Positions 3,336 to 60,403 of a stretch of 64,000 nt of DNA are shown piece by piece. Numbering within the stretch: position 1 is the stretch's first letter; each line of letters starts with the position of its first letter. The position numbers and the translations under genes were made by a program. The notes beneath the pieces were generated by a model that was given only the letters and a program-made list of their open reading frames with translations, made no database searches and was not told the origin of the DNA. Source of the DNA: Staphylococcus phage AH12; sequence record OR455461.1, one strand, 5' to 3'.

Positions 3336-4115
3336 TTATGAAAATCCTTTCTTGACTTTAAAATTTTTAATCTCTTTATCATCAGTTATTTCTCTAAAAT
3401 ATACATTTGCATCAAAATCATTTAAACTAATATACTTATCATATTCTTTTTCAAAACTAAAACCTTTTTCTTTTACCTTTTCATTAACGCTAAAATCCCA
3501 ATCCGGTGCAATAAGAAATTCAATATCTGAATGATCTTGTATCTGATCCAGTAATTCAAAGATTAATTTATTTGTTTCATTAAATATATCATATAAATCA
3601 TCTCTGAGTTCTACAGCTCTTTTTCCTTTTCGTATATGACTTTTATAGTATTTTAAAAATCGAGACATAGTTTCTTCATTAAATTTATGAGGTAAATACA
3701 TTTCACCATTATTATCAAATATACCGGATCTTTTACTAAATAATCTTTTACCTATCTCACTATTATTATATACAGGGAAAGCTCTAAAATTAATATAGTT
3801 ATCGTCTTCTTCTTTTAAACTAAAACGTATTGTAGAGTAGAAGAGAAGTTCCATTTTGTTTGTTTTACCTTTATATTTATATTTTACTGTAGGGAAAGAA
3901 TTAAAAAATAATCTAATACCAAATAAACCATCGTCATCATTATATTCTTCATGAGTTATGAAAAATTTTTTATTATACTTTAACTGCATTTCAGCGAATA
4001 ATTTGCTTAAAACTTTCCATTTAAAGTCAAAATATTTTGTTTCATTTTCATTGAAAGTTAATTCGATAAATTCTTTTTCAGATTTACTAGTGTAGTATTT
4101 GTTAATTTTTTCCAT
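3336..4115 (-). CDS. hypothetical protein; C-terminal-tag paralog family (..REITDDKEIKNFKVKKGFS)
   Basis: 259-aa ORF. Confidence 0.55.
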   Translation of the reverse strand: MEKINKYYTSKSEKEFIELTFNENETKYFDFKWKVLSKLFAEMQLKYNKKFFITHEEYNDDDGLFGIRLFFNSFPTVKYKYKGKTNKMELLFYSTIRFSLKEEDDNYINFRAFPVYNNSEIGKRLFSKRSGIFDNNGEMYLPHKFNEETMSRFLKYYKSHIRKGKRAVELRDDLYDIFNETNKLIFELLDQIQDHSDIEFLIAPDWDFSVNEKVKEKGFSFEKEYDKYISLNDFDANVYFREITDDKEIKNFKVKKGFS

Positions 4116-4141
4116 TTATTTAACTCCTTTTATTATAATAA

Positions 4142-4169
4142 TCCCAATACTAAATTAATAGTATTGGGA
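4142..4169. terminator. hairpin terminator TCCCAATAC-loop-GTATTGGGA
   Basis: Perfect 9-bp inverted repeat with flanking T/A runs. Same stem sequence recurs at 19047..19080. Confidence 0.5.
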
Positions 4170-4195
4170 TAACTTTTTAATAATATATATTTATT

Positions 4196-4597
4196 CTAAT
4201 CTTCAGAATTAGGTGATACTTGTCCATTTTCCATTTCTTCACGTTGTTCTTTAAGTCTGTCGAGAACTTCTTTTTCTTCTTTATTTTGAGTTAATTCTGG
4301 TTCAATTAATAATTCTTTTTCTTTCATATCTTCTAATATACTTAAACCTTTTTGAACTTCTGGCGATTCATTAGAAGGATTAAATCTATTGTGTTTATTA
4401 TCATAGTAATTTAATTTAACTAGGTCTGAATTAGTTTCAATAACTACTTCAGCTTCTATGAATAAAATATCATTTGGATCAGTCACACGCTTTCTATATA
4501 CTAAAGCTTTAGTATAAGAATCTTTTCTAAAACCATAATCTCTTAATAGTTGTTTAATATTTTCTTTATTACTATTTAATCTATATTCTGATAACAT
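4196..4597 (-). CDS. hypothetical protein with acidic C-terminus
   Basis: 133-aa ORF followed by the hairpin terminator at 4142..4169. Confidence 0.5.
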   Translation of the reverse strand: MLSEYRLNSNKENIKQLLRDYGFRKDSYTKALVYRKRVTDPNDILFIEAEVVIETNSDLVKLNYYDNKHNRFNPSNESPEVQKGLSILEDMKEKELLIEPELTQNKEEKEVLDRLKEQREEMENGQVSPNSED

Positions 4598-4610
4598 TAT
4601 AAATCACTCC

Positions 4611-4736
4611 TTAATTGTTTTTACTAAATTCATGAACTTCATTAAGATGCTCATGGTCTTGATAACTAAATTTAAATTCATATAGTTTCTTTTCAAATCT
4701 TTTTCTAGTTAATAATTCGTATAATCTTTTTAACAT
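4611..4736 (-). CDS. small hypothetical protein (41 aa, MLKRLYELLTRKRFEKK...)
   Basis: Short ORF not in the supplied track. Preceded by AAGGAGATG plus 8 nt then ATG. Confidence 0.3.
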   Translation of the reverse strand: MLKRLYELLTRKRFEKKLYEFKFSYQDHEHLNEVHEFSKNN

Positions 4737-4760
4737 ATCTAATTCATCTCCTTATTAATT

Positions 4761-5171
4761 TTAAAATGACGCATCTATTATTAAATAAAAATCATGCTTA
4801 TTGCTTTCTAAATAGTATCTATTTTGAAATATTTCTAACATTAATTTGTAGTATTTTGTTAGATCATTATCAAAATTATCTTCTTTTAATTCTTTTTTCA
4901 TTAATTCTTTTAAATTTGATTCTGAAATTACTTGAACATCATAACCTTCATCATCTTTAAAAATAGTTGAATTTTCACTTAAAACTTTAAATAATTCATG
5001 TGGTTTATATAATTCTAATTCAAATAAGTGATTTTTCTTATTTATATATCTTTTATTTTTAATATACCAATCTAAATTTCTTTGATGACTTTTATTTATT
5101 CCATATATACTAAGTTCCATACCCATAAATAATACATCTCCTATATAATAAATACCCATAATATATTGCAT
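4761..5171 (-). CDS. hypothetical protein
   Basis: 136-aa ORF. Exact start uncertain, several in-frame Met codons. Confidence 0.45.
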   Translation of the reverse strand: MQYIMGIYYIGDVLFMGMELSIYGINKSHQRNLDWYIKNKRYINKKNHLFELELYKPHELFKVLSENSTIFKDDEGYDVQVISESNLKELMKKELKEDNFDNDLTKYYKLMLEIFQNRYYLESNKHDFYLIIDASF

Positions 5172-5194
5172 TAATATATTATGGGTAAAATAAT

Positions 5195-5980
5195 TTAAAA
5201 TTCTGCTTTTTGATAGATGTTACCAAATTCATCTTTAACTATTTCATCATTACCTTCAATATCTTCAAAGATAAGATCTCTAGTCATAGCAAATAATTCT
5301 GGATATTCATCTTCAAGTTCATCTTCTTCAATGATATTCATTTCTTTATCGGCAATTACTAACTCATATTCATCTAAATTATCACCTAATACAAAGAATT
5401 TCAATGTGTCTTTATATACTTTTAAAATAGATGATAAGTCTTGATGTTTAAGTTCATTAACCTCTTTTTGTAATTCTTCTCTTTTTTCAATTTCTTTTTC
5501 ATCTTCATCTATATTTTTATTTAGATTTTCTAAAGTTTGATCTAATTTATCTTTCAAATCTTCTTCTTCTTCAGTAGTATCTTCTTCATTTTCTGTCATA
5601 CTGTTCAATATATCTTTATTAGACATAGTATTAAGCTGACTAAGTACATTTTTAGCAAGAACTTTATAATTATCTTCAGATTCATCATCTTCAACCATTT
5701 TCTGAGCTTTCATAGTTAAGTCAATAATATCTTTTTTAACATTTTTCATTTGCATAATAGTGTCTTTAATTTCTTTTTCTACACTAATAATGTTAGCTTC
5801 CATATTAGATACAAATGTATGTTTAGGATATTTCAGATTCTTAGTCAGATCTCTAATTCTTTCTTCTAATTGAATTTCTTTACGTTCCATTTTAGATTTA
5901 AATCCAACTAGCATTTTATATTCTTCCATCATATCATTAATTTGTGAAATTAAATCAATTTCATTATTTTCATTAGACAT
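5195..5980 (-). CDS. hypothetical acidic coiled-coil protein
   Basis: 261-aa ORF, Glu/Lys/Asp-rich heptad-like sequence. Confidence 0.55.
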   Translation of the reverse strand: MSNENNEIDLISQINDMMEEYKMLVGFKSKMERKEIQLEERIRDLTKNLKYPKHTFVSNMEANIISVEKEIKDTIMQMKNVKKDIIDLTMKAQKMVEDDESEDNYKVLAKNVLSQLNTMSNKDILNSMTENEEDTTEEEEDLKDKLDQTLENLNKNIDEDEKEIEKREELQKEVNELKHQDLSSILKVYKDTLKFFVLGDNLDEYELVIADKEMNIIEEDELEDEYPELFAMTRDLIFEDIEGNDEIVKDEFGNIYQKAEF

Positions 5981-11079: not shown

Positions 11080-13246
11080 TTATTCTTTAGTTAAAGAATA
11101 TAAAGCTTGTACCATATATTTATGATAATTAGACTATATCTTATGATATTTAAATCATTTCCATATTTAGTCGTTGAACAACTTTTATTAAGTTGATGCT
11201 GATTAGTTTTGTTTTTCCAGCAATTAATGAAATTTATTGAGAGCATACAAACTTACTCTCATTACCAACTCCACGTATACTATTTCCTGTGTAGTTTAAG
11301 TAATTAGTTTTCTTATTAATAAGTTTATCAGCTTCTTTATTTGCCTCTACAGACCATAAAGAGCGTATTGAAATCATATCCATTTTATATACATGTATTT
11401 ACATATAATTAGACTATATCTTCTTTAGTAATATATTTAGTCGTTGAACAACTTTTATTAAGTTGATGCTGATTATCTTATAGATTTTCCAGCAATTAAT
11501 ATTATTTAATGATGGTAATATGAAATTTTGCCATCAAAGTCAGCCGTAGTATTAACTTCATATAAATTTTTTATGAAGACTAGACTATATCAAACACTTT
11601 TAATTAAGTGTAATTATATTTAGTCGTTGAACAACTTTTATTAAGTTGATGCTGGTTAGATTTGACATTCCAGCAATTAATAATTTTTTGACATTATATC
11701 GCTATAATGAAAGGTCATTAAAATAGCCAAGTGCTTGAGCATATGAATTGTGTATGATTGCAGTATCTAAGAAAATATCTTCATCAATAGGATATTCTCT
11801 TACTACTTTAGGGTAATCTTTTAATACTATATCATCTAAAACTATTTCTGGAATAGTATCAACAGTAGTTAATATTTTAATTTTAGCAGGGGCTACGTTC
11901 AAGAAATTTTCGCATTTATTATATTTATATAATACTTATATAAATTAGACTATATTATATACTATTTAATAGTACCATTGCATTTAGTCGTTGAACAATT
12001 ATATTTAATTGATGCTGATTAACTTTATTAATAGTATTTCAGCAATTAACAGTGTTTATCGACTTAAATCACTTTAAGAAGCGACCATTTTATTAATCGG
12101 ATATCTTGAATACATAACATGCTTATCTTCTACTATTTCAGTTGCAGCGATATAAAGTAAATCAATTACAGTAAAATCTCTACCTAAAGTATTTTCAAAT
12201 AATTTAACTTTATGACGTTTACCTTCTCTATCATTTACATATATAGGACTAAATCTTTCATTAGGATCTTTAATAAAAAATTCTAGCATATTCTTAATTT
12301 CTTTATCATCAAATTGTTCATAAACTTCCTCTAATGAAAGCTCTTTATCTCCTTCACCTGTAGCTGTTTGGAAAGCATCTTTATGAAGTTCAATAAAATC
12401 AATTATATACTTATTAAAGAATGGTAAGAATAATGTAACTAATTGAGTTAATGGTACACCTAACTCACCAAACTCTATCTGCATTTCATCCCATTTATTC
12501 GAATTAATTTTAGGTGAAGAAATAACTGCACGAGTACTATTATCTACTGTTTTACCCAATATACGTTTTTGCATAAAACCAGTTTTACCTGATAATTCTC
12601 CTGAAGTAAATTTCTGATATATTTCAAATAATGTATTTTGTATATTATATTTAGTACTGTTAGCTATAAATCCGAATGAATTAAAACTAATAGCATCTAC
12701 AGAACGTATAATAGAAGAATACATATTATTAACTTCTTCAGTATCTTGAATTTCTCCTGAAGTTTCATTAGGATTAAAGTCTCTATAAAATGCAGGTATT
12801 ACTAACCATTTATCTACAAATATTTTTTGTTTATCCGTATTCTTAATCATATCAATTTTTTCAGATCTAATACGAGAATCATTCTTTCTAAATTTTAAAT
12901 CATCAAATACTTCATATAAGAAATTCAGTCCAGTGTCTCCATCTTCTGAAGGAACTAATTGACCTTTTTCTACTTTAAAATACTCTGAACCCTGAATACA
13001 TAGTTCAATATTTTTATCTAAATCTTTTAATGCTTTATAAGCTACCGGATTAAGGTATTTATCCTTTAAATTAATCCAACCTAAATTATTTTTTCTTTCA
13101 GGAGTACCTATCAAACCAAATATGTCATATGAAAATAAACCATCATCTTTTGGTAGTATACCCGAATCAAAAAATACAGGGTTGGTTACTTCTTTAGCAT
13201 TAGTGTCAGTTATGACTTGTTCAATATCTATCATATCTACTTTCAT
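11080..13246 (-). CDS. multisubunit RNA polymerase beta-prime-like subunit, N-terminal/catalytic-loop part. Split gene: join(13246..12096, 11912..11717, 11544..11530, 11380..11255, 11112..11080), about 506 aa
   Basis: Exon A contains GKTGFMQKRILGKTVDNSTRAVI, matching the beta-prime [23 protein letters not shown] motif. Predicted spliced product reads ..GYFN-ADFDG-DMISIRSLWSVEANKEAD.., matching ..[26 protein letters not shown]... Exon E gives ..VQALYSLTKE, matching VVLGLYYMTR. Exon borders were derived from P1/IGS pairing and reading frame. Confidence 0.7.
11113..11254 (-). ncRNA. ultra-compact group I intron R4 (142 nt) in the RNAP beta-prime-like gene
   Basis: P1 is exon GAGAGU paired to IGS GCUCUC with terminal U.G, 10-nt loop. 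Same core. Ends ..AUAUAUG before GUACAAGCU (V Q A). The first intron nucleotides encode KFVCSQ* when unspliced. Confidence 0.7.
11381..11529 (-). ncRNA. ultra-compact group I intron R3 (149 nt) in the RNAP beta-prime-like gene
   Basis: Same core. Hairpin UGAUGG(C)-15 nt loop-CCAUCA(A) forms P1. Ends ..AUAUAAAAUG immediately before GAUAUGAUU (D M I). The 5' splice site appears to follow C of GGC, facing A in the IGS. Confidence 0.6.
11545..11716 (-). ncRNA. ultra-compact group I intron R2 (172 nt) in the RNAP beta-prime-like gene
   Basis: Same conserved core. 5' exon ends ..UUUUAAU (Asn). GNRA hairpin CAUUAUA-GCGA-UAUAAUG lies in the P1 loop. Tentative IGS is GUCAAAA. The terminal G sits just before GCUGACUUUGAUGGC. 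Exact 3' splice site is tentative. Confidence 0.55.
11913..12095 (-). ncRNA. ultra-compact group I intron R1 (183 nt) in the RNAP beta-prime-like gene
   Basis: P/Q/R/S cores present (UUAAUUGCUG, AAUCAGCAUC, GUUCAACGACUAAAU, GAUAUAGUCUA). P1 is exon CGAU paired to IGS GUCG with U.G at the splice site. GNRA-capped hairpin CUUAAA-GUGA-UUUAAG. Ends ..AAUAAAUG. The reading frame is restored (AU + C = Ile). Confidence 0.7.
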
Positions 13247-16336: not shown

Positions 16337-18626
16337 CTAAAATTTAACCATATTTGATACGAAAGAACTATTTGAAGATTCTAACACTTTAACTCCAATA
16401 GATTCAATAATATCTTTACCTGGTTTAATGTGATCTTCTATCATTGAATCATAATCAATAAATGGTCTAAACTCTTCAGGTATTTTATTTCCTTCTACAG
16501 CAATTACATTCATTCCATTTTTAACTAATCTTTCGTTTCTAAATATTTCTCTAAATTTATCTAATAATTCTTCATCATCAACTTTATCTTTAATATCTCC
16601 AAATGATTTAATATTTAACTTAACCATTAAGATATTTGATGGAAGAGATATTTCTTTATCTGGATACATTAAATTCCATGATAAAGCTGCTCTATAATTC
16701 ATTTGTGTATAAGGATCTTTATATACTTCTGCATTATTAGCTTTACCAGGTTTTAAGAATTCAATATCACCATTCTCTAATGATTTTTTAATCATCTCTT
16801 CAATTTCTTTATATTTACGTATAATACCAATTCTATCAATACCAGTTTTATTTTCTAAAATATCTTTCTGTAGTATTTCAGTGAATAATTCTCTAATACG
16901 TTTATTAGTATTAACTTTTCTAATAGCCATACCTTTAACATCTAAGTCTGGTGGTTGAACTAAATTACCTTCTTGTTGTATTACTGATGATGCATAAGTT
17001 TTCTTTTTATCTGTTGTTAATTGTTTGTCAAGTAAAACGTTTATACTTATATTTAAAATATAAGACTAGACTATATCATATTCTTTATTATTAAGAATTA
17101 TTATATTTAGTCGTTGAACTTCATTATTGAAGATGCTGATTAAGTTTATTTTGTCTCAGCAATTAATAATATTTACTAATACACATTACTGTATACTGGA
17201 GCATTTACATACTCATTTTTCATTGATATAACACCTAAATGTTCATCTTCTAATCCTAAATCTTTACAGAATCTATGATAAGATAATTCTAGTAATTTAG
17301 TTATTTGATAGTTAATAATAGATATATTACCTACACGTTGTTCTAATTTATCTTCTAAACCATTTTCTGCAATAGGGAAATCTTCAGGTTTCTTTTCTTT
17401 CATTTTTTGATATAATGGATCTAAATGTACAAAGTTACTATCTGTCTTTAATATTATATTTTTAAATATAAAATAGACTATATCATATACTCTTTATGAG
17501 CATCATTATATTTAGTCGTTGAACAATCATATTGATTGATGCTGATTAATTTAATAAATACTTTCTCAGCAATTAATAATGTGAATCAACTTAAATTACT
17601 TTAAGCGGCGACCATGTTATCATAATCGATTGTAAGTACACTTCTACGTTTTTTATAATTCATTCTATACATTCTATTGTAATCTTGATAATTATAGATA
17701 ACCCAGTCTTCTAATATATCAAATAATTCATCTAATAATGGAATCATATCTTCAGGTGGTTCATTTGGATCTAAGAAATCTTCTCTACCAGTCATTTTAC
17801 TAATTTTATTATCAAATATATCTGTATGATCTAATAAACCATAAAGATTATTTTTAAAATAAACTCTATTTTTCTCATCTTGAGTTAAATTACTAAAGAA
17901 TTCTTTCAAATCATTTTCTTCATCTTCAGAGAAATTATATTCTACGTTATCCAATAAACCTTTTAATATTTCATTATCAGTAGGAACTGAATTTATCTTA
18001 ATATCGTGTTCTTTATATTCTTCTTGACATATTCTTACGATATAATTATAAATCTCACTAATATTCATAAAGAATATTTTACTTCCTATAAATCTTTCTA
18101 AAGCTATTGCTGAAGTAGTAACAATATCAACACCACTATATGTGATAGCAGGGCCTGAATAAGGATCATAGAAAATACTATTTCCTTGTATCATTGCACC
18201 ATAGTAACTATTAGCCAAAATCTTAATTGTTTTTTGCTCGTTCATATATTTATGATATTTAATATCGTCTACACCTTTACTTATAAACATATTATGTTTA
18301 GCTACTTTACGTGAGTCAATGAAGTCTTTTAACATCTCTGCATTTAAATTTTTTCTTTGTGATTGTGGTTGATAAATCGAACCTGATCCAGTTACTATTA
18401 AATTTGAATTAATAACTGTACGTAATAAAGAATCAACATTCATTTCTTGACCTGATACTTCTGTCATGACAGGTTTAACATTTTCTTTTACAAATTCTCT
18501 ACACTCTTTTAATATTTCTTCTTTATCAAAATCAGGATTATTCTTTTGAACCATCCATACCAATTGTTCTAAGTATCCGGTTAAAGCTCTTTTTCTTTCT
18601 TCTTTATTCTTTAATTCTGTTGTCAT
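16337..18626 (-). CDS. family-B DNA polymerase, C-terminal catalytic (palm/fingers/thumb) part, encoded as its own gene. Split gene: join(18626..17625, 17445..17193, 17037..16337), about 651 aa
   Basis: Exon 1 has motif B KILANSYYGAMIQG (Kx3NSxYG). Predicted splicing joins ..VLTID to TDSNFV.., giving motif C IDTDS (cf YGDTDS). Exon 3 has the KKxY motif DKKKTYASS. AGGAGGT RBS lies before the ATG at 18626. The N-terminal exonuclease part and motif A are not in this gene. Confidence 0.7.
17038..17192 (-). ncRNA. ultra-compact group I intron (155 nt) between polB exons 2 and 3
   Basis: Same core. P1 is exon GUAU plus intron AC, paired to IGS GUGUAU with U.G at the splice site. Hairpin CUUAUAU..AUAUAAG precedes the 3' end ..AUAAACG. 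The frame is restored (U + UU = Phe). Confidence 0.6.
17446..17624 (-). ncRNA. ultra-compact group I intron (179 nt) between polB exons 1 and 2
   Basis: Same P/Q/R/S core. P1 is exon CGAU paired to IGS GUCG with U.G. GNRA hairpin CUUAAA-GUAA-UUUAAG. Closely related to intron R1, same 5' flank AUGGUCGC..CUUAAAGURAUUUAAGUYGAU. Ends ..AUAUUAAAG. The unspliced frame reads YDNMVAA*. Confidence 0.7.
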
Positions 18627-18757: not shown

Positions 18758-19036
18758 TTGTCTAATAATTTATCTTCAATCGAAAAACAAATATTAGAAG
18801 CTACTGATGAAGCTCTTATTCAAGAGCAAAACATCATGCGTTTGGATGAACGTACTAAACGTAAACGTAGATTAAATCAAGCAGCATTAATTGCAGCTAA
18901 AGAAGCTCAAGATCCTATTTATTTTAAATACCAAAAAGCTTCTAGAGCACGTAGAAAATGGCGTGACTTAATTCGTCAAAAATACGCTACTAAAGCTAAA
19001 TTAAAATTAGCTGAGTATGATCACAACAAAAAATAA
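18758..19036 (+). CDS. hypothetical basic protein
   Basis: 92-aa ORF, the only plus-strand gene in this block. Followed by the hairpin terminator at 19047..19080. Confidence 0.5.
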   Translation: MSNNLSSIEKQILEATDEALIQEQNIMRLDERTKRKRRLNQAALIAAKEAQDPIYFKYQKASRARRKWRDLIRQKYATKAKLKLAEYDHNKK

Positions 19037-38800: not shown

Positions 38801-41751
38801 TTTTAGGAAAAGGATTAAGTAAAGCTGGTTCCATCGGTAAAGGTCTATTTAGCTCTATGAAAAATGGTGGTAAAAAAGCATTAGGTTTCTTAGGTAAAGC
38901 TAAAAATAAATTATTCAGTAAAGGCGGTATGAAAGCTGCTGGAAAATTTGCTTTAAAAGCTGGTCTAAAAACAGCATTACCTTTTATACCTGTTGTTGGA
39001 CCTATTATAGGTGCTGCAATGTGGGCACCAGATATTGTTAAAACTATAAAACACCCTATTGAATCTCTTAAACATCCAATTAAAACTTTAGGAAGCTTTT
39101 TCGGATTGTCTAAGCATCCAGGAGATACTCTTGAGGCTAAACAAAAAGAAGAAAAAGAAAATGAAGATGAAACAGGTTTAGGAAGATTAATATTATCTAC
39201 TTCTAAAATGATGTTTAGATCATCTCCTTTATTCCCAATTTCCAAAGTTGGAGGAGATATGTTTAAAACAATAACTGATAATAAAATGAAGTCAGGTCCT
39301 AAAGCTGAAGAAGAAATACAAGAAAATATGTTCTATGATACTCCTTTAGGTAGCCTATATCAAATGGCTAAAGGTGGTATAGATTTCTCTACTAAAGGTG
39401 GAGGAGAAATTGGCGACTGGTTTGCTAGATTTTTAGTTAAAATGGAAGGCATGGTTGTGGCTATGTCTAAAATGAAGAATTCTAGTTCAGGAGGAGATTC
39501 ATCTTCGTCTTCATCAGATAGTGGTAGTGGACAATTACAAGGTAATGAAATTGAAATAGATAAAAATGCACCTTCTATTACATCACAATCTGTATTGAGT
39601 AAAATACCTGATAATGCTGCAGGTGCTTGGATTAAGAAACATCAATTCTGGCAACCTTTCGGTAACTATCAAGGACTATCATTTAATGGTAGTTCAAAAC
39701 ACTGGGGTATTGATATTGGTATGCCTACAGGAACAGATATATTGGCTATTGTACCTGGTACAGTAAGTAATATAATTAAAGATGTTGGTGGAGGTAATAT
39801 CGTTGAGGTCAAAAACGGTAGTATCTACACTTGGTATATGCATAATAGTAAAATAATTGCTAAAAAAGGTGATAAAGTAGGAGTAGGTCAAAAAATTGCC
39901 ATATCTGGTAATACAGGTGCTCAAACTACTGCACCACATATGCACTTCCAGGTCATGAAAGGAAGACCTTCAAATGAAACTGCGATTGATCCAGCACCTT
40001 ATGTATTTGCTAAGGTAAAAGGTAAAGGTTCAGATGATGATGACAAGAGCAGTTCTAAAGGTGGAAGTAGTAAAAAAGGTGAAAAAGATAAAGGTGGAGG
40101 ACATTCACTAATAGGTGATATGAATTCTGTATCTATGCAAAGACAACTTAAGAAGAAAAATATTCAAGATATGCAGAATAAGAGAAAAGAAATTGCTCAA
40201 CAAAAGAGAGATCAAGATAAAATTGATACACAAATAAATAGAATTAATAAGCAAGATGATTATAAAGTTAAAGAAAAAGCTAAAAAAGTAAATAAAGTAT
40301 TTAATGCAATTAAAGAAAGTAAAGAGAAAAAACAAACTGGAATATTAAGATCATCAAATCAATTTAATAAAATTTTGATTATAGGTGATGAAATAACTAA
40401 AGATGCTTCAAATGATCTTAGAATTAAAATTAAAGGTGCTAAAATAGAAGCTTCTGTAGGAAAACAATATTCTGGTGGATCTGAATCTGGTAGAAGAATA
40501 TTACAAAATAATATTGATGAGTATAACAGAACCGGTGTAGCAATAGTTATCCAATTAGGTTTAAACGGAGGATTATCTACAGGAGAAATATCAGAAATAC
40601 AGAATATGTATGATAAAGCTAATGTATATTTCGTTAATACTTATTTCAATAGTAATAAAAATGGTACTAGTTTAGATTTAACTGATTTAATGAATGCAGT
40701 CAATGAATCAATTAATGCTAGTGCAGCTAATATAATTGACTGGTTTAGCAAAGCTAATTCTGTTTTAGTTAAAGAAGATGGATATATGCCAACAAATAAA
40801 GGTAGAATGATATTAGTAGATTTAATAAAAATGTATGTAAATCCTTATATTGGTGGTGGCGGTGCTTCTGATGATAAAAAAGCAGAAGAAAAAATTGATA
40901 AAGAAGTAGAAAAAGAAAAATCTAAAGCTGATAAAAAAGATAATAAAGATGAAGATGAAAAAGGATCTGAATCTAAAGTTTCTAAAGATGAAGATGGAGA
41001 ATCTTCTGATAGTGATAGTTCTGATTCTTCTTCAGGTGCCGGAGAGTACAGTTTCAAAAATGGTACTTGGTATGGCTCTATTACTGGTAGAGATGATAGA
41101 CGAATGGATGAAGAAGAGCAAGAAGAGCTTAATGATCGTTTAATGAAACGTTATGCTAAAATCTATGGAATTGACTATGAAGAAGCTAAGAAAATAGATA
41201 AGGAACAACAAGAAGAACTTAAAGCTAAAGCAGGTAAAGAAGCTACAGAATCTGGTTCTTCAAGTGGATCAAGTTCATCTAAAGATGGAGATGATAAAGA
41301 TTCAGGATCTTCTGCAAGTTCTTCTAAAGACAAAGCTAAAGAAAATATCGAAAAAGCAGGAAGTCAAATTTCCAAATTAGGTAATGGTTTCCAATTACCT
41401 ACATTAGAGAATAGTGGTTTTTCTAATACTAATAAAACAACACAAAATAATCAAGGCGATACAAGTAATAGTACAACAAATAATAATTATAATCAAGGTC
41501 AAGAAAGCACTGTTAATAATACTGATGTGAAACAAGAATTTGTAAAAGGTAAAAATAAAACTACAAATCATTATAATAAAATTGTAAATAATTATAAAAA
41601 TTCAACTGTGACTAATGGTAATACAGATTATGTATATGATTATGAGCAATATTGGTATTCAGATGACCTCGTTAAAATGTTGTCAAATATAGATAGAAAT
41701 ACATTAGCTTCTACTAAAGAATTAGATAGACTTTTAGAAGAATTAAAATAA
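35806..41751 (+). CDS. giant virion/tail-associated protein (~1981 aa) with peptidase M23 (LytM-like) domain and a second hydrolase-like domain; tape-measure/lysin-like
   Basis: HWGIDIGMPTGTDILAIVPG...HNSKIIAKKGDKVGVGQKIAISGNTGAQTTAPHMHFQ matches the M23 HxxxD/HxH signature. Gly/Lys-rich repeats (GKGLGLGKNIFGKG..). The ORF track starts at GTG 35788. ATG 35806 is preferred from RBS context. Confidence 0.6.
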   Translation: MDNNKKNIKRLEKNNNSEIIKNASKNTSRILFNAFIKSNPALDSVIGSDGLNLMNQEERRIKNVSEIKSSTKNLIKSIKSSSEENDIFSEESEKLSNSKPEYETVTEIIDNDDGTKSEIINVSDKKKSSLVNSPLIAFNNLATINQKGFTGTNIALRNLAVSNEATSTLMNSAVLNLESIQNSIYQNTLLEENTKRGKQSKLFEIVNGNISLLKYLDNKTNIENNSMISMLGGSEGLKNILMGFAKNPIELALTTGAQMGMKKLMYGSTSGYDPDDVENKGIFSRLNRKFDPNNLGSLLVSELTDDEGRISNTLDKLKGNDNKYISNLGEALNKRIGNLKDNVLSDGTISTKNKRDKNTPVQFDRESHTSINKAIPDLLSRLQGNLIARREGKSNGLVNNSELGSIYNYSKGTWDSRGNNRKNINDKLKEKSLFNFKDTKLGKDLSNNGIEDEEVKDILFSLSKINKPVKNKDELSKYTKDINYSDIVENIFNNDISKFNIDLFNIKKSIGTEYNKIDKDGSSLMTFTDIKGLKRRNNEVQSSSARVNKINEVKDYSNIEWKNDDLDELKKLFLEIESKLDDINPENISNNKDYVNDKIGRINSIIDSSSKFNLPSYLSNEKTKSVQDKLGKLSNSVNKFNDIRKDPSSILKGNTYNDNNNEDLNSGIIDNNYTDNHPLMNLINNIKGKQSNNKVDLNKEPTKSIDDLSREEKQSKARKYLENIISTAYPKQSKTMINDMNQSDDNKKLDEMKKGLSTANAAETGEDVISKLSGSSKTKVAEDLRGTLKFGSGGAAEKEMGTKKLMNSMLDFSKPGTIAFAGLSATVLAKLMNGKKKKDQEKGLMGSVGTGLGFLGKAGLMLGGGVLAAKFLPKLLGKFLPKGAMNMFDTIKNLPGKLKGTFGKVFDAGKNFFGKGKNLIGKGLGLGKNIFGKGIKLGKNILGKGAQLGKSLMGKGSLGLIKDGFGKGASIAKSGFNKLFNLGGKNSFATKGLPKSGGILGKGLSKAGSIGKGLFSSMKNGGKKALGFLGKAKNKLFSKGGMKAAGKFALKAGLKTALPFIPVVGPIIGAAMWAPDIVKTIKHPIESLKHPIKTLGSFFGLSKHPGDTLEAKQKEEKENEDETGLGRLILSTSKMMFRSSPLFPISKVGGDMFKTITDNKMKSGPKAEEEIQENMFYDTPLGSLYQMAKGGIDFSTKGGGEIGDWFARFLVKMEGMVVAMSKMKNSSSGGDSSSSSSDSGSGQLQGNEIEIDKNAPSITSQSVLSKIPDNAAGAWIKKHQFWQPFGNYQGLSFNGSSKHWGIDIGMPTGTDILAIVPGTVSNIIKDVGGGNIVEVKNGSIYTWYMHNSKIIAKKGDKVGVGQKIAISGNTGAQTTAPHMHFQVMKGRPSNETAIDPAPYVFAKVKGKGSDDDDKSSSKGGSSKKGEKDKGGGHSLIGDMNSVSMQRQLKKKNIQDMQNKRKEIAQQKRDQDKIDTQINRINKQDDYKVKEKAKKVNKVFNAIKESKEKKQTGILRSSNQFNKILIIGDEITKDASNDLRIKIKGAKIEASVGKQYSGGSESGRRILQNNIDEYNRTGVAIVIQLGLNGGLSTGEISEIQNMYDKANVYFVNTYFNSNKNGTSLDLTDLMNAVNESINASAANIIDWFSKANSVLVKEDGYMPTNKGRMILVDLIKMYVNPYIGGGGASDDKKAEEKIDKEVEKEKSKADKKDNKDEDEKGSESKVSKDEDGESSDSDSSDSSSGAGEYSFKNGTWYGSITGRDDRRMDEEEQEELNDRLMKRYAKIYGIDYEEAKKIDKEQQEELKAKAGKEATESGSSSGSSSSKDGDDKDSGSSASSSKDKAKENIEKAGSQISKLGNGFQLPTLENSGFSNTNKTTQNNQGDTSNSTTNNNYNQGQESTVNNTDVKQEFVKGKNKTTNHYNKIVNNYKNSTVTNGNTDYVYDYEQYWYSDDLVKMLSNIDRNTLASTKELDRLLEELK
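41035..41290. repeat. about 250-bp segment nearly identical to 46375..46625 (shared between the two giant genes)
   Basis: Encodes GAGEYSFKNGTWYGSITGRDDRRMDEEEQEELNDRLMKRYAKIYGIDYEEAKKIDKEQQEELKAKAGKEATESG. The second copy reads GASEYSFKNGTWYGSITGRDDNRMDEEEQEALNDRLMKRYARIYGIDYEEAKKIDEEQQAELKAKAGKEATESG. Confidence 0.7.
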
Positions 41752-57806: not shown

Positions 57807-58052
57807 TTATACTAATATAAAATCAATTATCTTTACTTTTTTATCTCTAACATGTCTAAATTGATCATCATAATTTTCTAAGTAATAATGAACTTTATTA
57901 TCCAAGTCAGAGCTATTAGAGATGACCTCTTTAGCTCCACTTGGTAAATCTATTACTACTATTAATATTTCTGGTTCTTTATTTAAATTTCTATATTTAC
58001 TTTCAAATTTTTCTTTTAATGTCATATAATTTCCTCCAATTAGATAGAACAA
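57807..58052 (-). CDS. small hypothetical protein between nrdE and nrdF
   Basis: 81-aa ORF. Overlaps the nrdE stop by 13 nt. Confidence 0.4.
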   Translation of the reverse strand: MFYLIGGNYMTLKEKFESKYRNLNKEPEILIVVIDLPSGAKEVISNSSDLDNKVHYYLENYDDQFRHVRDKKVKIIDFILV

Positions 58053-60403
58053 GATTCACATTCAACAATACCTTGAGAATTTTCATCATGGTCTGGTGAA
58101 TAAATACGAGTATAATACATAGATTTAATACCTTTACTGTAAGCATAGTTACGTAATCTACTAATATCACGAGTAGTAGTTTCTTTATCTAAAGAATCTT
58201 TTTTCCATTCATACAATTCAGGATCAAGTTCATTCATTAAATAAATATTCATAGAGATACCTTGATCAACATGATATTGAGCTTCTGAATATAAATCAAT
58301 CATATCACGCATATCTAATTGATAAGCATTTTTCTTAAAGTAATCAAAGTTATCTGGTGTAATACCTGGTGCTGGATAGAAAGTAGTACCTGTTTTACCT
58401 TCTACACGTTCTTCAATTAATTCAACAATAGGGTGAATTGAAGGTGATACTTCTCTAACATAACCAATAGAACCATTAGGTGCTACAGCTAATCTATTTT
58501 GATTGTATAAACCATCCATAACGATATTATTTCTTAATTGTTCCCAATCACTATCAGATGGAATAAAGATATCTTCAAATAATTCTTTAACTTTTTCAGT
58601 ACGTGGTTGAATATTTTTACCAATATAACGTTTATCAAAGTAAGAACCATCAGCATATTCAGTTTTTTCAAATAAATAGAATGATTCATCTTTTTCTTTA
58701 GCAATTTTATTTGATTCAACTAACGTCCAATAGTTTAATAGCATGAAATAAATATTAGTGAAATCTTTAGATTCTTCTGATCCATATTGAATATGATTTT
58801 CAGCTAAATAAGTGTGTAATCCCATTGCACCTAAACCAACTGTATGGAATAAATCATTAGCTTTCTTAACTGTAGGTACAGCTTCAATATTAGATTTTTC
58901 TGCTACTGAATTTAAACTTCTTAACATAGTTCCAACTGATTTACCAAAGTCTTCTGATTTCATTAAACCAGGTACGATAGTTGAAGCTAAGTTACATGAA
59001 ACATCTGTTCCTGTTTTAACATATTGTTGATTATCGTCAACTAATGAAGGGTATTGTACTTGCAGAATTTCACTACACAAATTACTCATTTTAATTGTAC
59101 CATGACTAATTGGATTAGCTCTATTAGCTGTATCAATATTAATAATATAAGGATATCCAGATTCTTGTTGTAATTTACTAATAGTAGTTTCTAAATCACG
59201 AGCATACATTTTCTCTTTACCAATACGTTTATCATCTACAAAGATATCATAGTAAGTATTAAAGTCAATACTATCGAAATCTAAATCATAATATTTTTTA
59301 ATATCATATGGACTAAATGTATATAATGATTTATTTTCTTTAACTAATTGGTAATATTTATCTGGAACTGTTAAACCTAATGAAATAGTTTTTAGTCTTA
59401 CTTTCTCATCAGCATTTTCTTTCTTAGTATCTAAGAATTTCACTACATCTTTATGGAAAATATTTAAGTAAAGTGCACCTGCACCATTTCTTTGCATTTA
59501 TATTAACTATATGAAATTCATATAGATTAGACTATATCTTATACTATTAATAAGTATTATTATATTTAGTCGTTGAACAATCATCTTGATTGATGCTGAT
59601 TAAGTTTATAAACTTTTCCAGCAATTAATATTATTTATACTGAGCCATTAAAATTAACCCAGTTGATTTACATATGATAAAGTATCTTCAAATACTTTCA
59701 TAACTGGAACTACTCCTGAAGCAGCACCTTCAACACCTTTAATTGGATCATTATCAGCACGTAGATTACTTAAAGATACTCCTATTCCTCCACCACGTTT
59801 ACTTAATTGTGCCACATTAGAGATATTTCTATAAATAGATGATAAAGAATCCTCCATAGTTAATAAGAAACAACTTACTAACTCACCAGAACGTACTCTA
59901 CCTGCATTAAGAAATGTAGGTGTAGCTGGTTGGAAAGTACCTGTAATAATTTCATTAGCAATATCTCTAGCTAATTCTTCATCACCGTCAGCTAAGTATA
60001 AAGCTACAAATAAAATTCTATCTTCATATAGTTCTAATAAGATTTCCCCTGCATCATCTTTCATTGCATACTGTTCATAGAATTTTTTAGCTCCTAATAA
60101 ACGAGTAAAACGATGTTTATAAGCCATTAATTCTTTCATTAATCCTTTAATAAATTCAAAATTATAGTTATTGATCATATCTCCATCAATATAATCATTA
60201 TTAACTAAGTAATTAATTTTTTCCTTATATGTTTTAAAATATCTTACATTCTTATTAACTTTTTCATCGAAGTATTTACTAACAGAAGCTAACTCAAATT
60301 CTAGATCTAAATTACCGTCTTTTAATTGTGAACCTCTTGAATTCAATTCATTGTATGAATAATCTTTGAACTTTTCTGAGTTTAAGTCTATTTCTTTTGT
60401 CAT
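58040..60403 (-). CDS. nrdE: ribonucleotide reductase class Ib alpha subunit. Split gene: join(60403..59657, 59494..58040), about 733 aa
   Basis: Exon 1 has ..TFQPATPTFLNAGR..GELVSCFLL..SKRGGGIGVSLSNLR... Exon 2 has ..QRNGAGALYLNIFH.. and the C-terminal Cys pair (CESCSI). Predicted splicing gives the seamless ..NQLG-QRNGAGA.. junction. Confidence 0.8.
59495..59656 (-). ncRNA. ultra-compact group I intron (162 nt) in nrdE
   Basis: P1 is exon CUGGGU paired to IGS GCUCAG (C-G, U-A, G-C, G.U, G-C, terminal U.G), 11-nt loop. P/Q/R/S cores AAUUGCUGG, AAUCAGCAUC, GUUCAACGACUAAAU, AAGAUAUAGUCUA. P9-like hairpin CUAUAUG..CAUAUAG. Ends ..AUAUAAAUG. The ATG of the downstream ORF is actually the intron 3' end. 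Confidence 0.8.

What the first reader, a model, noticed from the sequence alone, without database searches (positions are those of the whole stretch)
11113..12095. Family of seven 142-183 nt ORF-less group I-like introns, smaller than any natural group I intron I am aware of
Seven same-orientation copies of a structured element sit inside three essential genes at 11113..11254, 11381..11529, 11545..11716, 11913..12095, 17038..17192, 17446..17624 and 59495..59656. Each carries the four canonical group I core elements in the canonical order. These are P-like UUAAUUGCUGGAAAA, Q-like AAUCAGCAUC, R-like GUUCAACGACUAAAU and S-like AAGAUAUAGUCUA. In each, GACUA pairs with UAGUC to give P7. A 5' exon ending in U pairs with an internal guide sequence as a U.G wobble, and a terminal G precedes the 3' exon. 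Three hairpins show compensatory covariation between copies. P6-like examples are CAACUU/AAGUUG, CAAUUA/UAAUUG, CUUCA/UGAAG and CAAUCA/UGAUUG. P4/P5-like examples are GCUG/CAGC versus CUGG/CCAG. Natural group I introns I know of are 200 nt or longer. These appear to lack P2 in four copies and have vestigial P5, P8 and P9. If they self-splice, they define a minimal group I ribozyme architecture.
Basis: partly seen in the sequence, partly recalled or inferred. Interest (0 to 1): 0.95.

Follow-up and report, generated by a model that had tools for sequence, protein, structure and literature searches.

The report
Miniature group I introns in phage genes
Seven very short (142-183 nt), protein-less self-splicing-type (group I) introns interrupt the catalytic motifs of three essential genes of a Staphylococcus jumbo phage; they belong to a family with up to 34 copies per related genome, and their core is complete yet smaller than that of any well-studied natural group I intron.

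Summary

Evidence that they are compact, ORF-less group I introns:
- Removing them restores uninterrupted reading frames.
- For six of the seven, sister phages carry intron-less alleles collinear with the predicted spliced product.
- All seven match Rfam RF00028 below its threshold (17.9-36.9 bits against 50).
- On 82 distinct relatives, P3, P4, P6, P7 and P8 are 96.9% paired, and 20 of 28 pairs show double changes.
- P1 carries a wobble at the cleavage site, and every copy ends in G.

- c3 starts 9 nt and c5 starts 18 nt further upstream, giving 181 and 173 nt.
- Two 5' exons end in C and form a C.A wobble, not U.G.
- Four copies, not three, carry a P2 hairpin with a GNRA loop.

Beyond the window, phage LY01 holds 34 copies of about 129-188 nt, with exons as short as 6 nt. 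Four sister phages hold none. Copies that share a P2 module sit after the same exon 3- to 4-mers.

Self-splicing was not tested. I found no paper describing the family. Verdict: a new variant of a known kind.

The parts
12096..13246 (-). Virion RNA polymerase beta'-N gene, exon 1. It ends ...SRYP(I), with the DNA ending CCGAT.
   Evidence: ORF 12074..13246. 98% identical to the Machias beta'-N gene.
11913..12095 (-). Intron c4, 183 nt. P1 is CGAU/GUCG with a U.G wobble; P2 is CUUAAA-GUGA-UUUAAG; it ends in G.
   Evidence: CM hit of 100 bits. RF00028 20.1 bits. The Madawaska intron-less allele is collinear: CCGAT|CGAAAA.
11726..11912 (-). beta'-N exon 2, (I)ENFLNV...SYAQALG.
   Evidence: tblastn against Madawaska, Machias and LY01.
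11545..11725 (-). The 5' exon ends GGC, opposite ACC of the guide (C.A wobble). P2 is CAUUAUA-GCGA-UAUAAUG.
   Evidence: CM hit of 112 bits. RF00028 20.4 bits. Three intron-less alleles read ALG|ADFDG.
11530..11544 (-). 15-nt micro-exon GCTGACTTTGATGGC, encoding ADFDG of the catalytic DFDGD motif.
   Evidence: Splicing in silico. Homologues read ADFDG|DMISIR.
11381..11529 (-). Intron c2, 149 nt, without P2. P1 is UGAUGG/CCAUCA plus C(-1).A. P10 is GAUAUG/CAUAUU.
   Evidence: CM hit of 96.5 bits. RF00028 31.3 bits, E = 7.5e-6. LY01 has the homologous intron at this site with GGU|...GCCG (U.G). Madawaska has a 1472-nt HEG-bearing group I intron at the same position.
11255..11380 (-). beta'-N exon 4, DMISIRSLW...GNES.
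11113..11254 (-). Intron c1, 142 nt, without P2. P1 is GAGAGU/GCUCUC with a U.G wobble. P10 is GUAC/GUAU.
   Evidence: CM hit of 106.6 bits. RF00028 28.4 bits. The Madawaska intron-less allele is collinear. The MFE fold reproduces P1, P4, P6, P7 and P8.
11080..11112 (-). beta'-N last exon, VQALYSLTKE followed by the stop codon.
17625..18626 (-). Family-B DNA polymerase (C-terminal part), exon ending ...VLTID.
17446..17624 (-). Intron c6, 179 nt, inserted inside the DTDS motif (ID|TDS). P1 is CGAU(UAUG)/(CAUG)GUCG. P2 is CUUAAA-GUAA-UUUAAG.
   Evidence: CM hit of 109.6 bits. RF00028 30.7 bits. The S6 intron-less allele is collinear.
17211..17445 (-). DNA polymerase middle exon, TDSNFVHL...ISMKNE.
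17038..17210 (-). P1 is GAGU/GCUC with a U.G wobble. P2 is AUACA-GUAA-UGUGU.
   Evidence: CM hit of 94.4 bits. RF00028 17.9 bits. Intron-less S6 and PB50 read KNE|FLLD, and PALS_2, DC4 and SA1 give the same 535-nt span. The MarsHill homologue has a covarying P2, UGUAUA-GUGA-UAUACA.
16337..17037 (-). DNA polymerase last exon, FLLDKQLTTDKKKTYA... (KKxY motif region).
59657..60403 (-). Ribonucleotide reductase large subunit (nrdE), exon 1, ending ...YVNQLG.
59495..59656 (-). Intron c7, 162 nt, without P2. P1 is ACUGGGU/GGCUCAGU with a U.G wobble.
   Evidence: CM hit of 102 bits. RF00028 36.9 bits, E = 7e-8. Six intron-less phages match the spliced 400-nt query in one piece of exactly 400 nt.
58040..59494 (-). 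nrdE exon 2, QRNGAGALYLN...

Best explanation
The seven elements are compact, ORF-less group I introns with an IA-type core, removed from the mRNA by the ordinary group I pathway.

Inferred mechanism: the end of the 5' exon pairs with an internal guide sequence to form P1, with a wobble pair (U.G, or C.A in c2 and c3) marking the cleavage site. An exogenous guanosine bound in P7 (GACUA/UAGUC) attacks that site. The terminal G of the intron then takes its place and the exons are ligated.

Shown from sequence: the fold is reduced to P1, (P2), P3, P4, a vestigial P5, P6, P7, P8 and P9. The P7.1/P7.2, P5abc, P6a and P9.1 type extensions of conventional phage introns are absent.

The copies belong to a multi-copy family that is present or absent site by site among closely related Staphylococcus jumbo phages, which is how mobile introns behave.

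Inferred, not shown: splicing is autocatalytic or helped by an RNA chaperone or other protein. New sites are colonised by guide-sequence-directed insertion (reverse splicing, reverse transcription and recombination), or by trans-acting homing endonucleases.
For: 1. Family and core. The R box is exact in all 7 copies, and the CM gives 7 hits of 94-112 bits. All 7 match RF00028 over the full model length or the core, at E between 7e-8 and 0.04.

2. Structure. On 82 distinct family members, 96.9% of cells are paired, against 27-45% when partners are slid. 20 of 28 pairs show double changes. All pairs of P3, P6 and P8 covary. P4 and P7 are nearly invariant but fully paired. Single-sequence MFE folds reproduce P1, P2, P4, P6, P7, P8 and P9.

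3. Excision. Removing the elements gives stop-free products of 499, 645 and 733 aa. It rejoins ADFDG|D, ID|TDS and NQLG|QRNGAGA.

4. Intron-less alleles in sister phages are collinear with the predicted spliced DNA for c1, c3, c4, c5, c6 and c7.

5. P1 rule. A U.G wobble occurs in 5 of 7 copies. c2 has GGC|...A-CCAUC where LY01's intron at the same site has GGU|...G-CCG. c3 likewise has GGC/ACC where its subfamily has GGU/GCC. These are U.G-to-C.A double changes.

6. Applying the rule 'P1 with U.G plus terminal G' to 30 LY01 copies restores long open frames across most junctions.

7. Madawaska carries a 1472-nt HEG-bearing group I intron with the same P, Q, R and S boxes at exactly the c2 site.

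8. The phages carrying these interruptions are viable isolates, and their annotators already joined exons by protein alignment.
Against: - There is no RNA or biochemical evidence, so self-splicing is untested.
- All copies fall below the RF00028 gathering score.
- G+C is only 20-24% and predicted MFE only -23 to -36 kcal/mol. The peripheral elements that stabilise other small introns are missing or not evident: there is no L9 tetraloop, and three window copies have no P2. Unaided folding may therefore be poor.
- P1 is only 3-4 bp in several copies, and P10 is convincing only for c1 and c2.
- c3's P1 is ambiguous: GG/CC plus a C.A wobble, or UUGGC/GUCAA lying after the hairpin.
- The covariation alignment was fitted to the model.
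Confidence: 0.9

Rival explanations
1. These are group I-derived introns that are no longer autocatalytic. The stripped-down, AU-rich core would need a phage or host protein (a maturase-like factor, an RNA chaperone such as a cold-shock protein, or the ribosome) to fold and splice.
For: P7.1/P7.2, P5 extensions and an L9 tetraloop are missing. G+C is 20-24% and predicted stability is low. Scores lie below the RF00028 threshold. Some Bastillevirinae phage introns splice only in vivo (PMC11878797). LY01 is annotated with a cold-shock protein.
Against: All catalytic-core elements and junction sequences (J3/4, J6/7, J8/7, P7) are conserved at consensus. GNRA loops on P2 indicate RNA-RNA tertiary contacts. 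No candidate cofactor is linked to the introns. The Azoarcus intron shows that a small core can be very active.
Confidence: 0.35
2. The elements are not spliced. They are repeated intergenic or MITE-like DNA that splits the genes into separately translated fragments, as jumbo-phage RNA polymerase subunits are already known to be split.
For: Jumbo-phage RNA polymerase genes are naturally split into several genes (PMC7598289). Annotators of LY01 and PB50 called the fragments as separate CDSs.
Against: Exons of 15 nt in the window, and of 6-12 nt in LY01, cannot be genes. The breaks fall inside the DFDGD and DTDS catalytic motifs. Most internal exons lack start codons. Intron-less alleles are exactly collinear. 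The elements carry a covarying group I core.
Confidence: 0.02
3. The interruptions are removed or bypassed at another level: inteins, translational bypassing or frameshifting, or the interrupted genes are pseudogenes.
For: These phages do contain an intein in gyrA.
Against: The inserts contain stop codons in the exon frame and do not preserve the frame as protein. No intein motifs are present. Inserts of 142-183 nt with a conserved RNA structure are far beyond known bypass gaps. The genes are essential, and the phages carrying them are viable isolates.
Confidence: 0.01

Closest known systems
Phage group IA introns (T4 td/nrdB/sunY, Staphylococcus phage Twort orf142 and nrdE introns, SPO1/Bastille DNA polymerase introns), and the 1472-nt HEG-bearing intron of phage Madawaska at the c2 site
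   Same: They share the P, Q, R and S core boxes, the P3/P7 pseudoknot, P1 with a guide sequence, and a terminal G. They target the same kinds of genes (DNA polymerase, nrdE, RNA polymerase) at catalytic motifs, occur several per gene, and are present or absent among related phages (PMC12908238).
   Different: These are about half the size: 142-183 nt, against a non-coding part of 350 +/- 108 nt (PMC11878797). They have no ORF, no room for P7.1/P7.2, a vestigial P5, and P2 is absent in about half of the copies. They score below the Rfam threshold. They reach 10-34 copies per genome.
[quoted passage not shown]
   Same: It is a natural, ORF-less, minimal-periphery group I intron with a full catalytic core. 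It is the usual benchmark for a 'small' group I ribozyme (PMC13168695).
   Different: Azoarcus is GC-rich, lies in a tRNA anticodon loop, and is stabilised by two tetraloop-receptor contacts (from my own knowledge). The phage elements are 20-60 nt shorter, have 20-24% G+C, sit in mRNAs and are multi-copy.
Small 'putative/degenerate' group I introns of fungal rDNA (56-81 nt, Phialophora and lichen fungi)
   Same: They are claimed to be group I derivatives well below 200 nt (PMC3160393).
   Different: They lack most of the core, and their classification is tentative. The phage elements keep every core helix, each supported by covariation.
crAss-like Zeta-group phages with 'unprecedented' intron density (up to 14 introns per genome)
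   Same: Phage genomes heavily infested with group I introns in core genes, including RNA polymerase and DNA polymerase B (PMC7886860).
   Different: Those introns were recognised through their encoded endonuclease domains. Here the introns are ORF-less miniatures, and the count reaches 34 in LY01.
Reverse-splicing spread of rDNA group I introns
   Same: Related introns occur at different sites whose upstream 3-8 nt match the guide sequence (PMC3984707; this work).
   Different: The sites here are in protein-coding genes of a DNA phage. The mechanism is inferred only, and the phage reverse transcriptase does not correlate with intron load.

Membership tests
Group I intron (Rfam RF00028) | Core helices P3, P4, P6, P7 and P8 in canonical order with conserved P, Q, R and S segments, supported by covariation | tested here: met
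   96.9% of 2206 cells are paired, against 27-45% when partners are slid. 20 of 28 pairs show double changes. All pairs of P3, P6 and P8 covary. RNAalifold recovers P4, P6, P7 and P8 independently.
Group I intron (Rfam RF00028) | P3/P7 pseudoknot | tested here: met
   All 6 pairs of P3 covary. P7 is 100% paired, with one compensatory change (AU to GC). The two helices cross.
Group I intron (Rfam RF00028) | Score at or above the curated gathering threshold (50 bits) | tested here: not met
   No hit at the gathering threshold. Scores are 36.9, 31.3, 30.7, 28.4, 20.4, 20.1 and 17.9 bits, with E between 7e-8 and 0.04.
Group I intron (Rfam RF00028) | P1: the end of the 5' exon pairs with an internal guide sequence, with a wobble pair at the cleavage site | tested here: met
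   U.G in c1, c4, c5, c6 and c7; C.A in c2 and c3, with U.G-to-C.A double changes relative to LY01 homologues. c3's P1 is weak or ambiguous.
Group I intron (Rfam RF00028) | Terminal guanosine (omega-G) at the 3' splice site | tested here: met
   7 of 7 copies end in G. The position is fixed independently by intron-less alleles for 6 of them.
Group I intron (Rfam RF00028) | Precise excision that restores a functional gene | tested here: met
   Stop-free products of 499, 645 and 733 aa. The spliced DNA is collinear with intron-less alleles. This rests on sequence only, with no RNA data.
Group I intron (Rfam RF00028) | Guanosine-dependent two-step transesterification (self-splicing) | not testable with these tools
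   Needs an in vitro transcription and splicing assay, or RNA-seq.
Subgroup IA1/IA2 phage introns | Extra helices P7.1/P7.2 between P3' and P7' | tested here: not met
   Only 15-28 nt separate the R and S boxes, which is filled by P3' and one hairpin, P8. Madawaska's intron at the c2 site has about 110 nt there.
Mobile (homing-endonuclease-encoding) group I introns | Intron-encoded homing endonuclease ORF | tested here: not met
   The introns are 142-183 nt with no ORF. HEG-bearing introns occupy the same or neighbouring sites in Madawaska and MarsHill.
GIR1 lariat-capping ribozyme (a group I-like RNA of similar size) | Match to the Rfam GIR1 family; no P1 and no exon ligation | tested here: not met
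   No such Rfam match, even at E up to 10. P1 and the exon context are present.

The most novel reading that the evidence does not exclude
The most novel reading has three parts.
1. This is a naturally miniaturised group I ribozyme family of about 129-188 nt, with a complete core and almost no periphery. It would splice efficiently enough to sit inside the catalytic motifs of essential genes.
2. It has multiplied to more than 30 copies per phage genome by guide-sequence-directed ectopic insertion (reverse splicing followed by reverse transcription and recombination). That would be the first large body of genomic evidence for this route in protein-coding genes.
3. It yields mRNAs with exons as short as 6-15 nt that must be joined by consecutive ribozymes.
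Probability: 0.3. Interest if true: 0.92.

Novelty: new variant of a known kind. Interest (0 to 1): 0.8.

Why it matters
1. Minimal ribozyme. If these RNAs self-splice, they set a new natural lower size limit for a complete group I ribozyme, roughly 130-180 nt against 205 nt for Azoarcus. They come with dozens of natural sequence variants, which is useful for structural work, folding studies and engineering such as circular-RNA production or trans-splicing.

2. Annotation. The standard Rfam threshold misses all of them. This explains why genomes of this phage group are annotated with fragmented 'hypothetical' genes, and why one study reported no introns (PMC10638138, although that particular phage seems truly free of this family). 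A dedicated model would repair the annotation of RNA polymerase, DNA polymerase, RNR and other genes in jumbo phages and in metagenomic contigs.

3. Intron biology.
- Copy number runs from 0 to 34 among phages with 83-96% identical exons.
- Independent insertions lie a few nucleotides apart in the same catalytic motifs.
- Micro-exons are as short as 6-15 nt.
- The 5' module of an intron is linked to the upstream exon 3- to 4-mer.

Together these make the family a tractable system for the long-open question of how ORF-less group I introns reach new sites.

Tried and rejected
- Rfam at gathering thresholds on the whole window gave nothing. The matches appear only in E-value mode on short stretches, and c5 and c6 were lost again when 2.3 kb was searched.
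- I tested whether nearest neighbours by identity of the intron core plus 3' part share 5' exon ends. They do not (p about 0.35-0.44). A few sequences were probably mis-trimmed in that script. Only the P2-module version of the test is significant.
- I tested whether the phage reverse transcriptase tracks intron load. It does not. All nine Staphylococcus jumbo phages have it, including the four with no copies, and it is not in the window.
- tblastn of the three spliced window proteins against IMG/VR loci carrying the family gave no hits, so the host genes there are different or too divergent.
- The reading that places the GNRA hairpin of c3, c4 and c6 inside the P1 loop, with the guide sequence after the hairpin, was considered. 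I dropped it for c4, c5 and c6 in favour of guide, then P2, then P3, by analogy with c5/MarsHill and 17 LY01 copies. It remains possible for c3.
- The AR9 genome paper and the J Virol version of Korn et al. could not be read, so I cannot exclude that they comment on intron size.
- Paper searches for small, minimal or miniature group I introns in phages found no description of this family.
- Split genes, inteins, translational bypass and pseudogenes were all rejected as explanations (see the rival explanations).
Full report
**What is in the window**

The elements lie on the minus strand. The R-box 15-mer GTTCAACGACTAAAT occurs exactly seven times. Each copy is flanked by UUAAUUGCUG(G/A) and AAUCAGCAUC upstream, and by GAUAUAGUCUA downstream. 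A covariance model of the roughly 108-nt core (R1) finds these seven at 94-112 bits. Nothing else in the 64 kb exceeds 20 bits with filters off.

The window is 95% identical to Staphylococcus jumbo phage Machias, and more distantly related to PB50, LY01, MarsHill, Madawaska, S6, PALS_2, DC4 and SA1. The host genes are:
- the family-B DNA polymerase (c5, c6);
- the class Ib ribonucleotide reductase large subunit (c7).

**Are they excised, and where exactly?**

Deleting the elements gives stop-free products of 499, 645 and 733 aa. The breaks fall in catalytic motifs: ADFDG|D of the beta' metal-binding loop, ID|TDS of the polymerase DTDS motif, and NQLG|QRNGAGA of nrdE. c3 and c2 are separated by a 15-nt exon that encodes ADFDG.

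Sister phages provide intron-less alleles:
- For nrdE, the in silico spliced 400-nt query matches six phages in one piece of exactly 400 nt.
- For the polymerase gene, S6, PALS_2, DC4 and SA1 match in one piece.
- For beta', Madawaska lacks c4, c3 and c1.

They move two 5' splice sites:
- c3 begins 9 nt earlier. Machias, Madawaska and MarsHill read ALG|ADFDG, with no 'YFN'.
- c5 begins 18 nt earlier. Intron-less S6 and PB50 read KNE|FLLD, and the other intron-less alleles give the same 535-nt span.

The corrected lengths are 142, 149, 181, 183, 173, 179 and 162 nt.

**Structure**

By inspection, RNAalifold and single-sequence folding, the layout from 5' to 3' is:
- the 5' splice site, a short loop, then the guide sequence;
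- P2 with a GNRA loop in c3-c6 only;
- an A-rich linker;
- P3 (6 bp), then J3/4 (UAAU);
- P4 (UGCUGR/YCAGCA);
- a short or absent P5;
- P6, then J6/7 (UUCAAC);
- P7 (GACUA), AAU, then P3';
- P8, then J8/7 (AAGAUA), then P7' (UAGUC);
- a P9 hairpin and a tail ending in G.

On 94 family members (82 distinct) from the window, LY01, Machias, MarsHill and metagenomic viral contigs:
- 96.9% of 2206 cells form standard pairs, against 27-45% when partners are slid.
- 20 of 28 pairs have double changes.
- Every pair of P3, P6 and P8 covaries.
- P4 and P7 are almost invariant but fully paired.

The alignment was fitted to the model, which inflates these numbers somewhat. The slid controls and the number of pair types make the result robust.

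All seven copies match RF00028 significantly but below its 50-bit threshold, at 17.9-36.9 bits. This is why standard annotation misses them.

**Splice-site recognition**

P1 has a U.G wobble at the cleavage site in five copies:
- c1: GAGAGU/GCUCUC
- c4 and c6: CGAU/GUCG
- c5: GAGU/GCUC
- c7: ACUGGGU/GGCUCAGU

In c2 and c3 the exon ends in C opposite an A. LY01's intron at the c2 site has GGU| with G-CCG. The LY01 relatives of c3 have GGU| with GCC. These are therefore U.G-to-C.A double changes. From established ribozyme work (my own knowledge), that is the substitution which preserves wobble geometry.

P10 is clear for c1 and c2 only.

**The wider family**

A blastn search with c7 finds the following numbers of places:

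| Phage | Places |
|---|---|
| LY01 | 34 |
| Machias | 30 |
| PB50 | 21 |
| Madawaska | 12 |
| MarsHill | 10 |
| S6, PALS_2, DC4, SA1 | 0 |

R1 confirms 34 full-length cores in the complete LY01 genome.

I assigned junctions to 30 LY01 copies using only the P1 rule and a terminal G. This gives lengths of 129-188 nt with a median of 168. It restores long open frames across most junctions. The exons between neighbouring introns can be as short as 6, 9, 12 and 19 nt.

Insertion sites differ between phages within the same motifs:
- LY01 has GAD|FDG and DTDS|N.
- The window has LG|ADFDG and ID|TDS.

Full-length cores also occur in clusters on 200-400 kb IMG/VR contigs. Those contigs encode RNA polymerase beta/beta'-like fragments and HNH-type endonucleases.

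Madawaska carries a 1472-nt HEG-bearing group I intron at exactly the c2 site. It has the same boxes and long peripheral insertions. The miniatures are therefore relatives of conventional mobile phage introns.

**How new sites might be reached (inference)**

Copies that share a P2 module, which the exon does not constrain, sit after the same exon ends:
- CGAU at four different sites for the GUCG/CUUAAAGNRAUUUAAG type;
- GGU or GGC at six sites for the GCC/UUAUUAUAGNAAUAUAAU type;
- an identical AACUGGGU for two P2-less copies in unrelated genes.

Nearest neighbours by P2 module share the last 3 nt of the 5' exon in 12 of 17 cases (permutation p about 0.001). This fits guide-directed insertion by reverse splicing. 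For that route only circumstantial rDNA evidence exists so far (PMC3984707).

Three points weaken the inference:
- It is equally the pattern that selection for splicing competence would leave.
- The same test on the core was null.
- The phage reverse transcriptase is present in intron-free relatives too.

**Comparison and novelty**

These are group I introns by every sequence-level criterion except the Rfam score cut-off. They lack the P7.1/P7.2 helices of IA1/IA2 phage introns. They are shorter than the 205-nt Azoarcus intron (PMC13168695) and about half the usual non-coding size of phage introns (PMC11878797). Published 56-81-nt 'putative' fungal group I introns are smaller but lack the core (PMC3160393).

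Korn et al. joined exons in Machias, MarsHill and Madawaska by protein alignment. They did not classify or size the introns. I found no paper describing the family, but two key papers were not readable.

**Verdict**

This is a real, well-supported family: a new, miniaturised and highly proliferated variant of a known kind. Self-splicing and the mode of spread remain to be tested.

Noticed in passing
window 11530..11544 (-); LY01 OR836606 240999..241004, 176622..176630, 233494..233505, 40560..40578: There are micro-exons between adjacent mini-introns. The window has one of 15 nt (ADFDG). LY01 has predicted exons of 6 nt (TACGAT), 9 nt (FDG), 12 nt and 19 nt. Open frames are restored across them.
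   Followed up: partly
L002 (Madawaska MW349129) locus 4385..5856; L003 (MarsHill) locus 3693..5162: Madawaska has a 1472-nt group I intron at exactly the c2 site. It carries a homing endonuclease ORF, the same P, Q, R and S boxes, and long peripheral insertions. MarsHill has an intron near the c4 site, after ENF, that starts GUGCG and looks like group II. This fits the group II introns reported in beta'-N genes (PMC12350094).
   Followed up: partly
window 18384..18485 (-) and 18868..18923 (-): Two weak hits of the mini-intron model (about 20 bits, E about 0.5) lie in or upstream of the DNA polymerase gene. There is no RF00028 match there. They are probably chance matches or degenerate remnants.
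   Followed up: partly
Whole genomes: LY01 34, Machias 30, PB50 21, Madawaska 12, MarsHill 10; S6, PALS_2, DC4, SA1 0: Copy number of the family varies from 0 to 34 among phages whose exons are 83-96% identical. The published maximum for a phage genome that I found is 14 introns (crAss Zeta group, PMC7886860).
   Followed up: partly
LY01 176631..176811 and 182162..182315, against window c3 (11545..11725) and c6 (17446..17624): The same catalytic motifs are hit independently at positions 6-9 nt apart, by different subtypes of the family, in different phages: GAD|FDG against LG|ADFDG, and DTDS|N against ID|TDS.
   Followed up: partly
IMG/VR loci L010, L023, L028, L036 (contigs of 232-378 kb): Clusters of 6-8 mini-intron cores, spaced roughly 150-250 nt apart at their densest, interleave with HNH-type endonuclease ORFs and RNA polymerase beta/beta'-like exon fragments in uncultivated jumbo-phage contigs. 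The family therefore extends well beyond Staphylococcus phages.
   Followed up: partly
LY01 L129 33311..34813 (-), and homologues in all nine Staphylococcus jumbo phages: A retron-type reverse transcriptase is conserved in the whole phage group, including the members with no mini-introns. It is not encoded in this window.
   Followed up: yes
Literature: bioRxiv 10.1101/2020.12.14.422802: MarsHill-like phages do not plaque or propagate efficiently at 37 C. As a speculation only, very AU-rich mini-ribozymes (20-24% G+C) inside essential genes could contribute to such temperature sensitivity.
   Followed up: no
LY01 176775..177214 (between the c4-like and c3-like introns): The beta'-N exon breaks off after ...HNSYA and resumes about 440 nt later at ALGAD. 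The tail of the intervening stretch reads GAUAUAGUCC...AAAUAGCG, so this appears to be another group I-type intron. The mini-intron model does not detect it.
   Followed up: no
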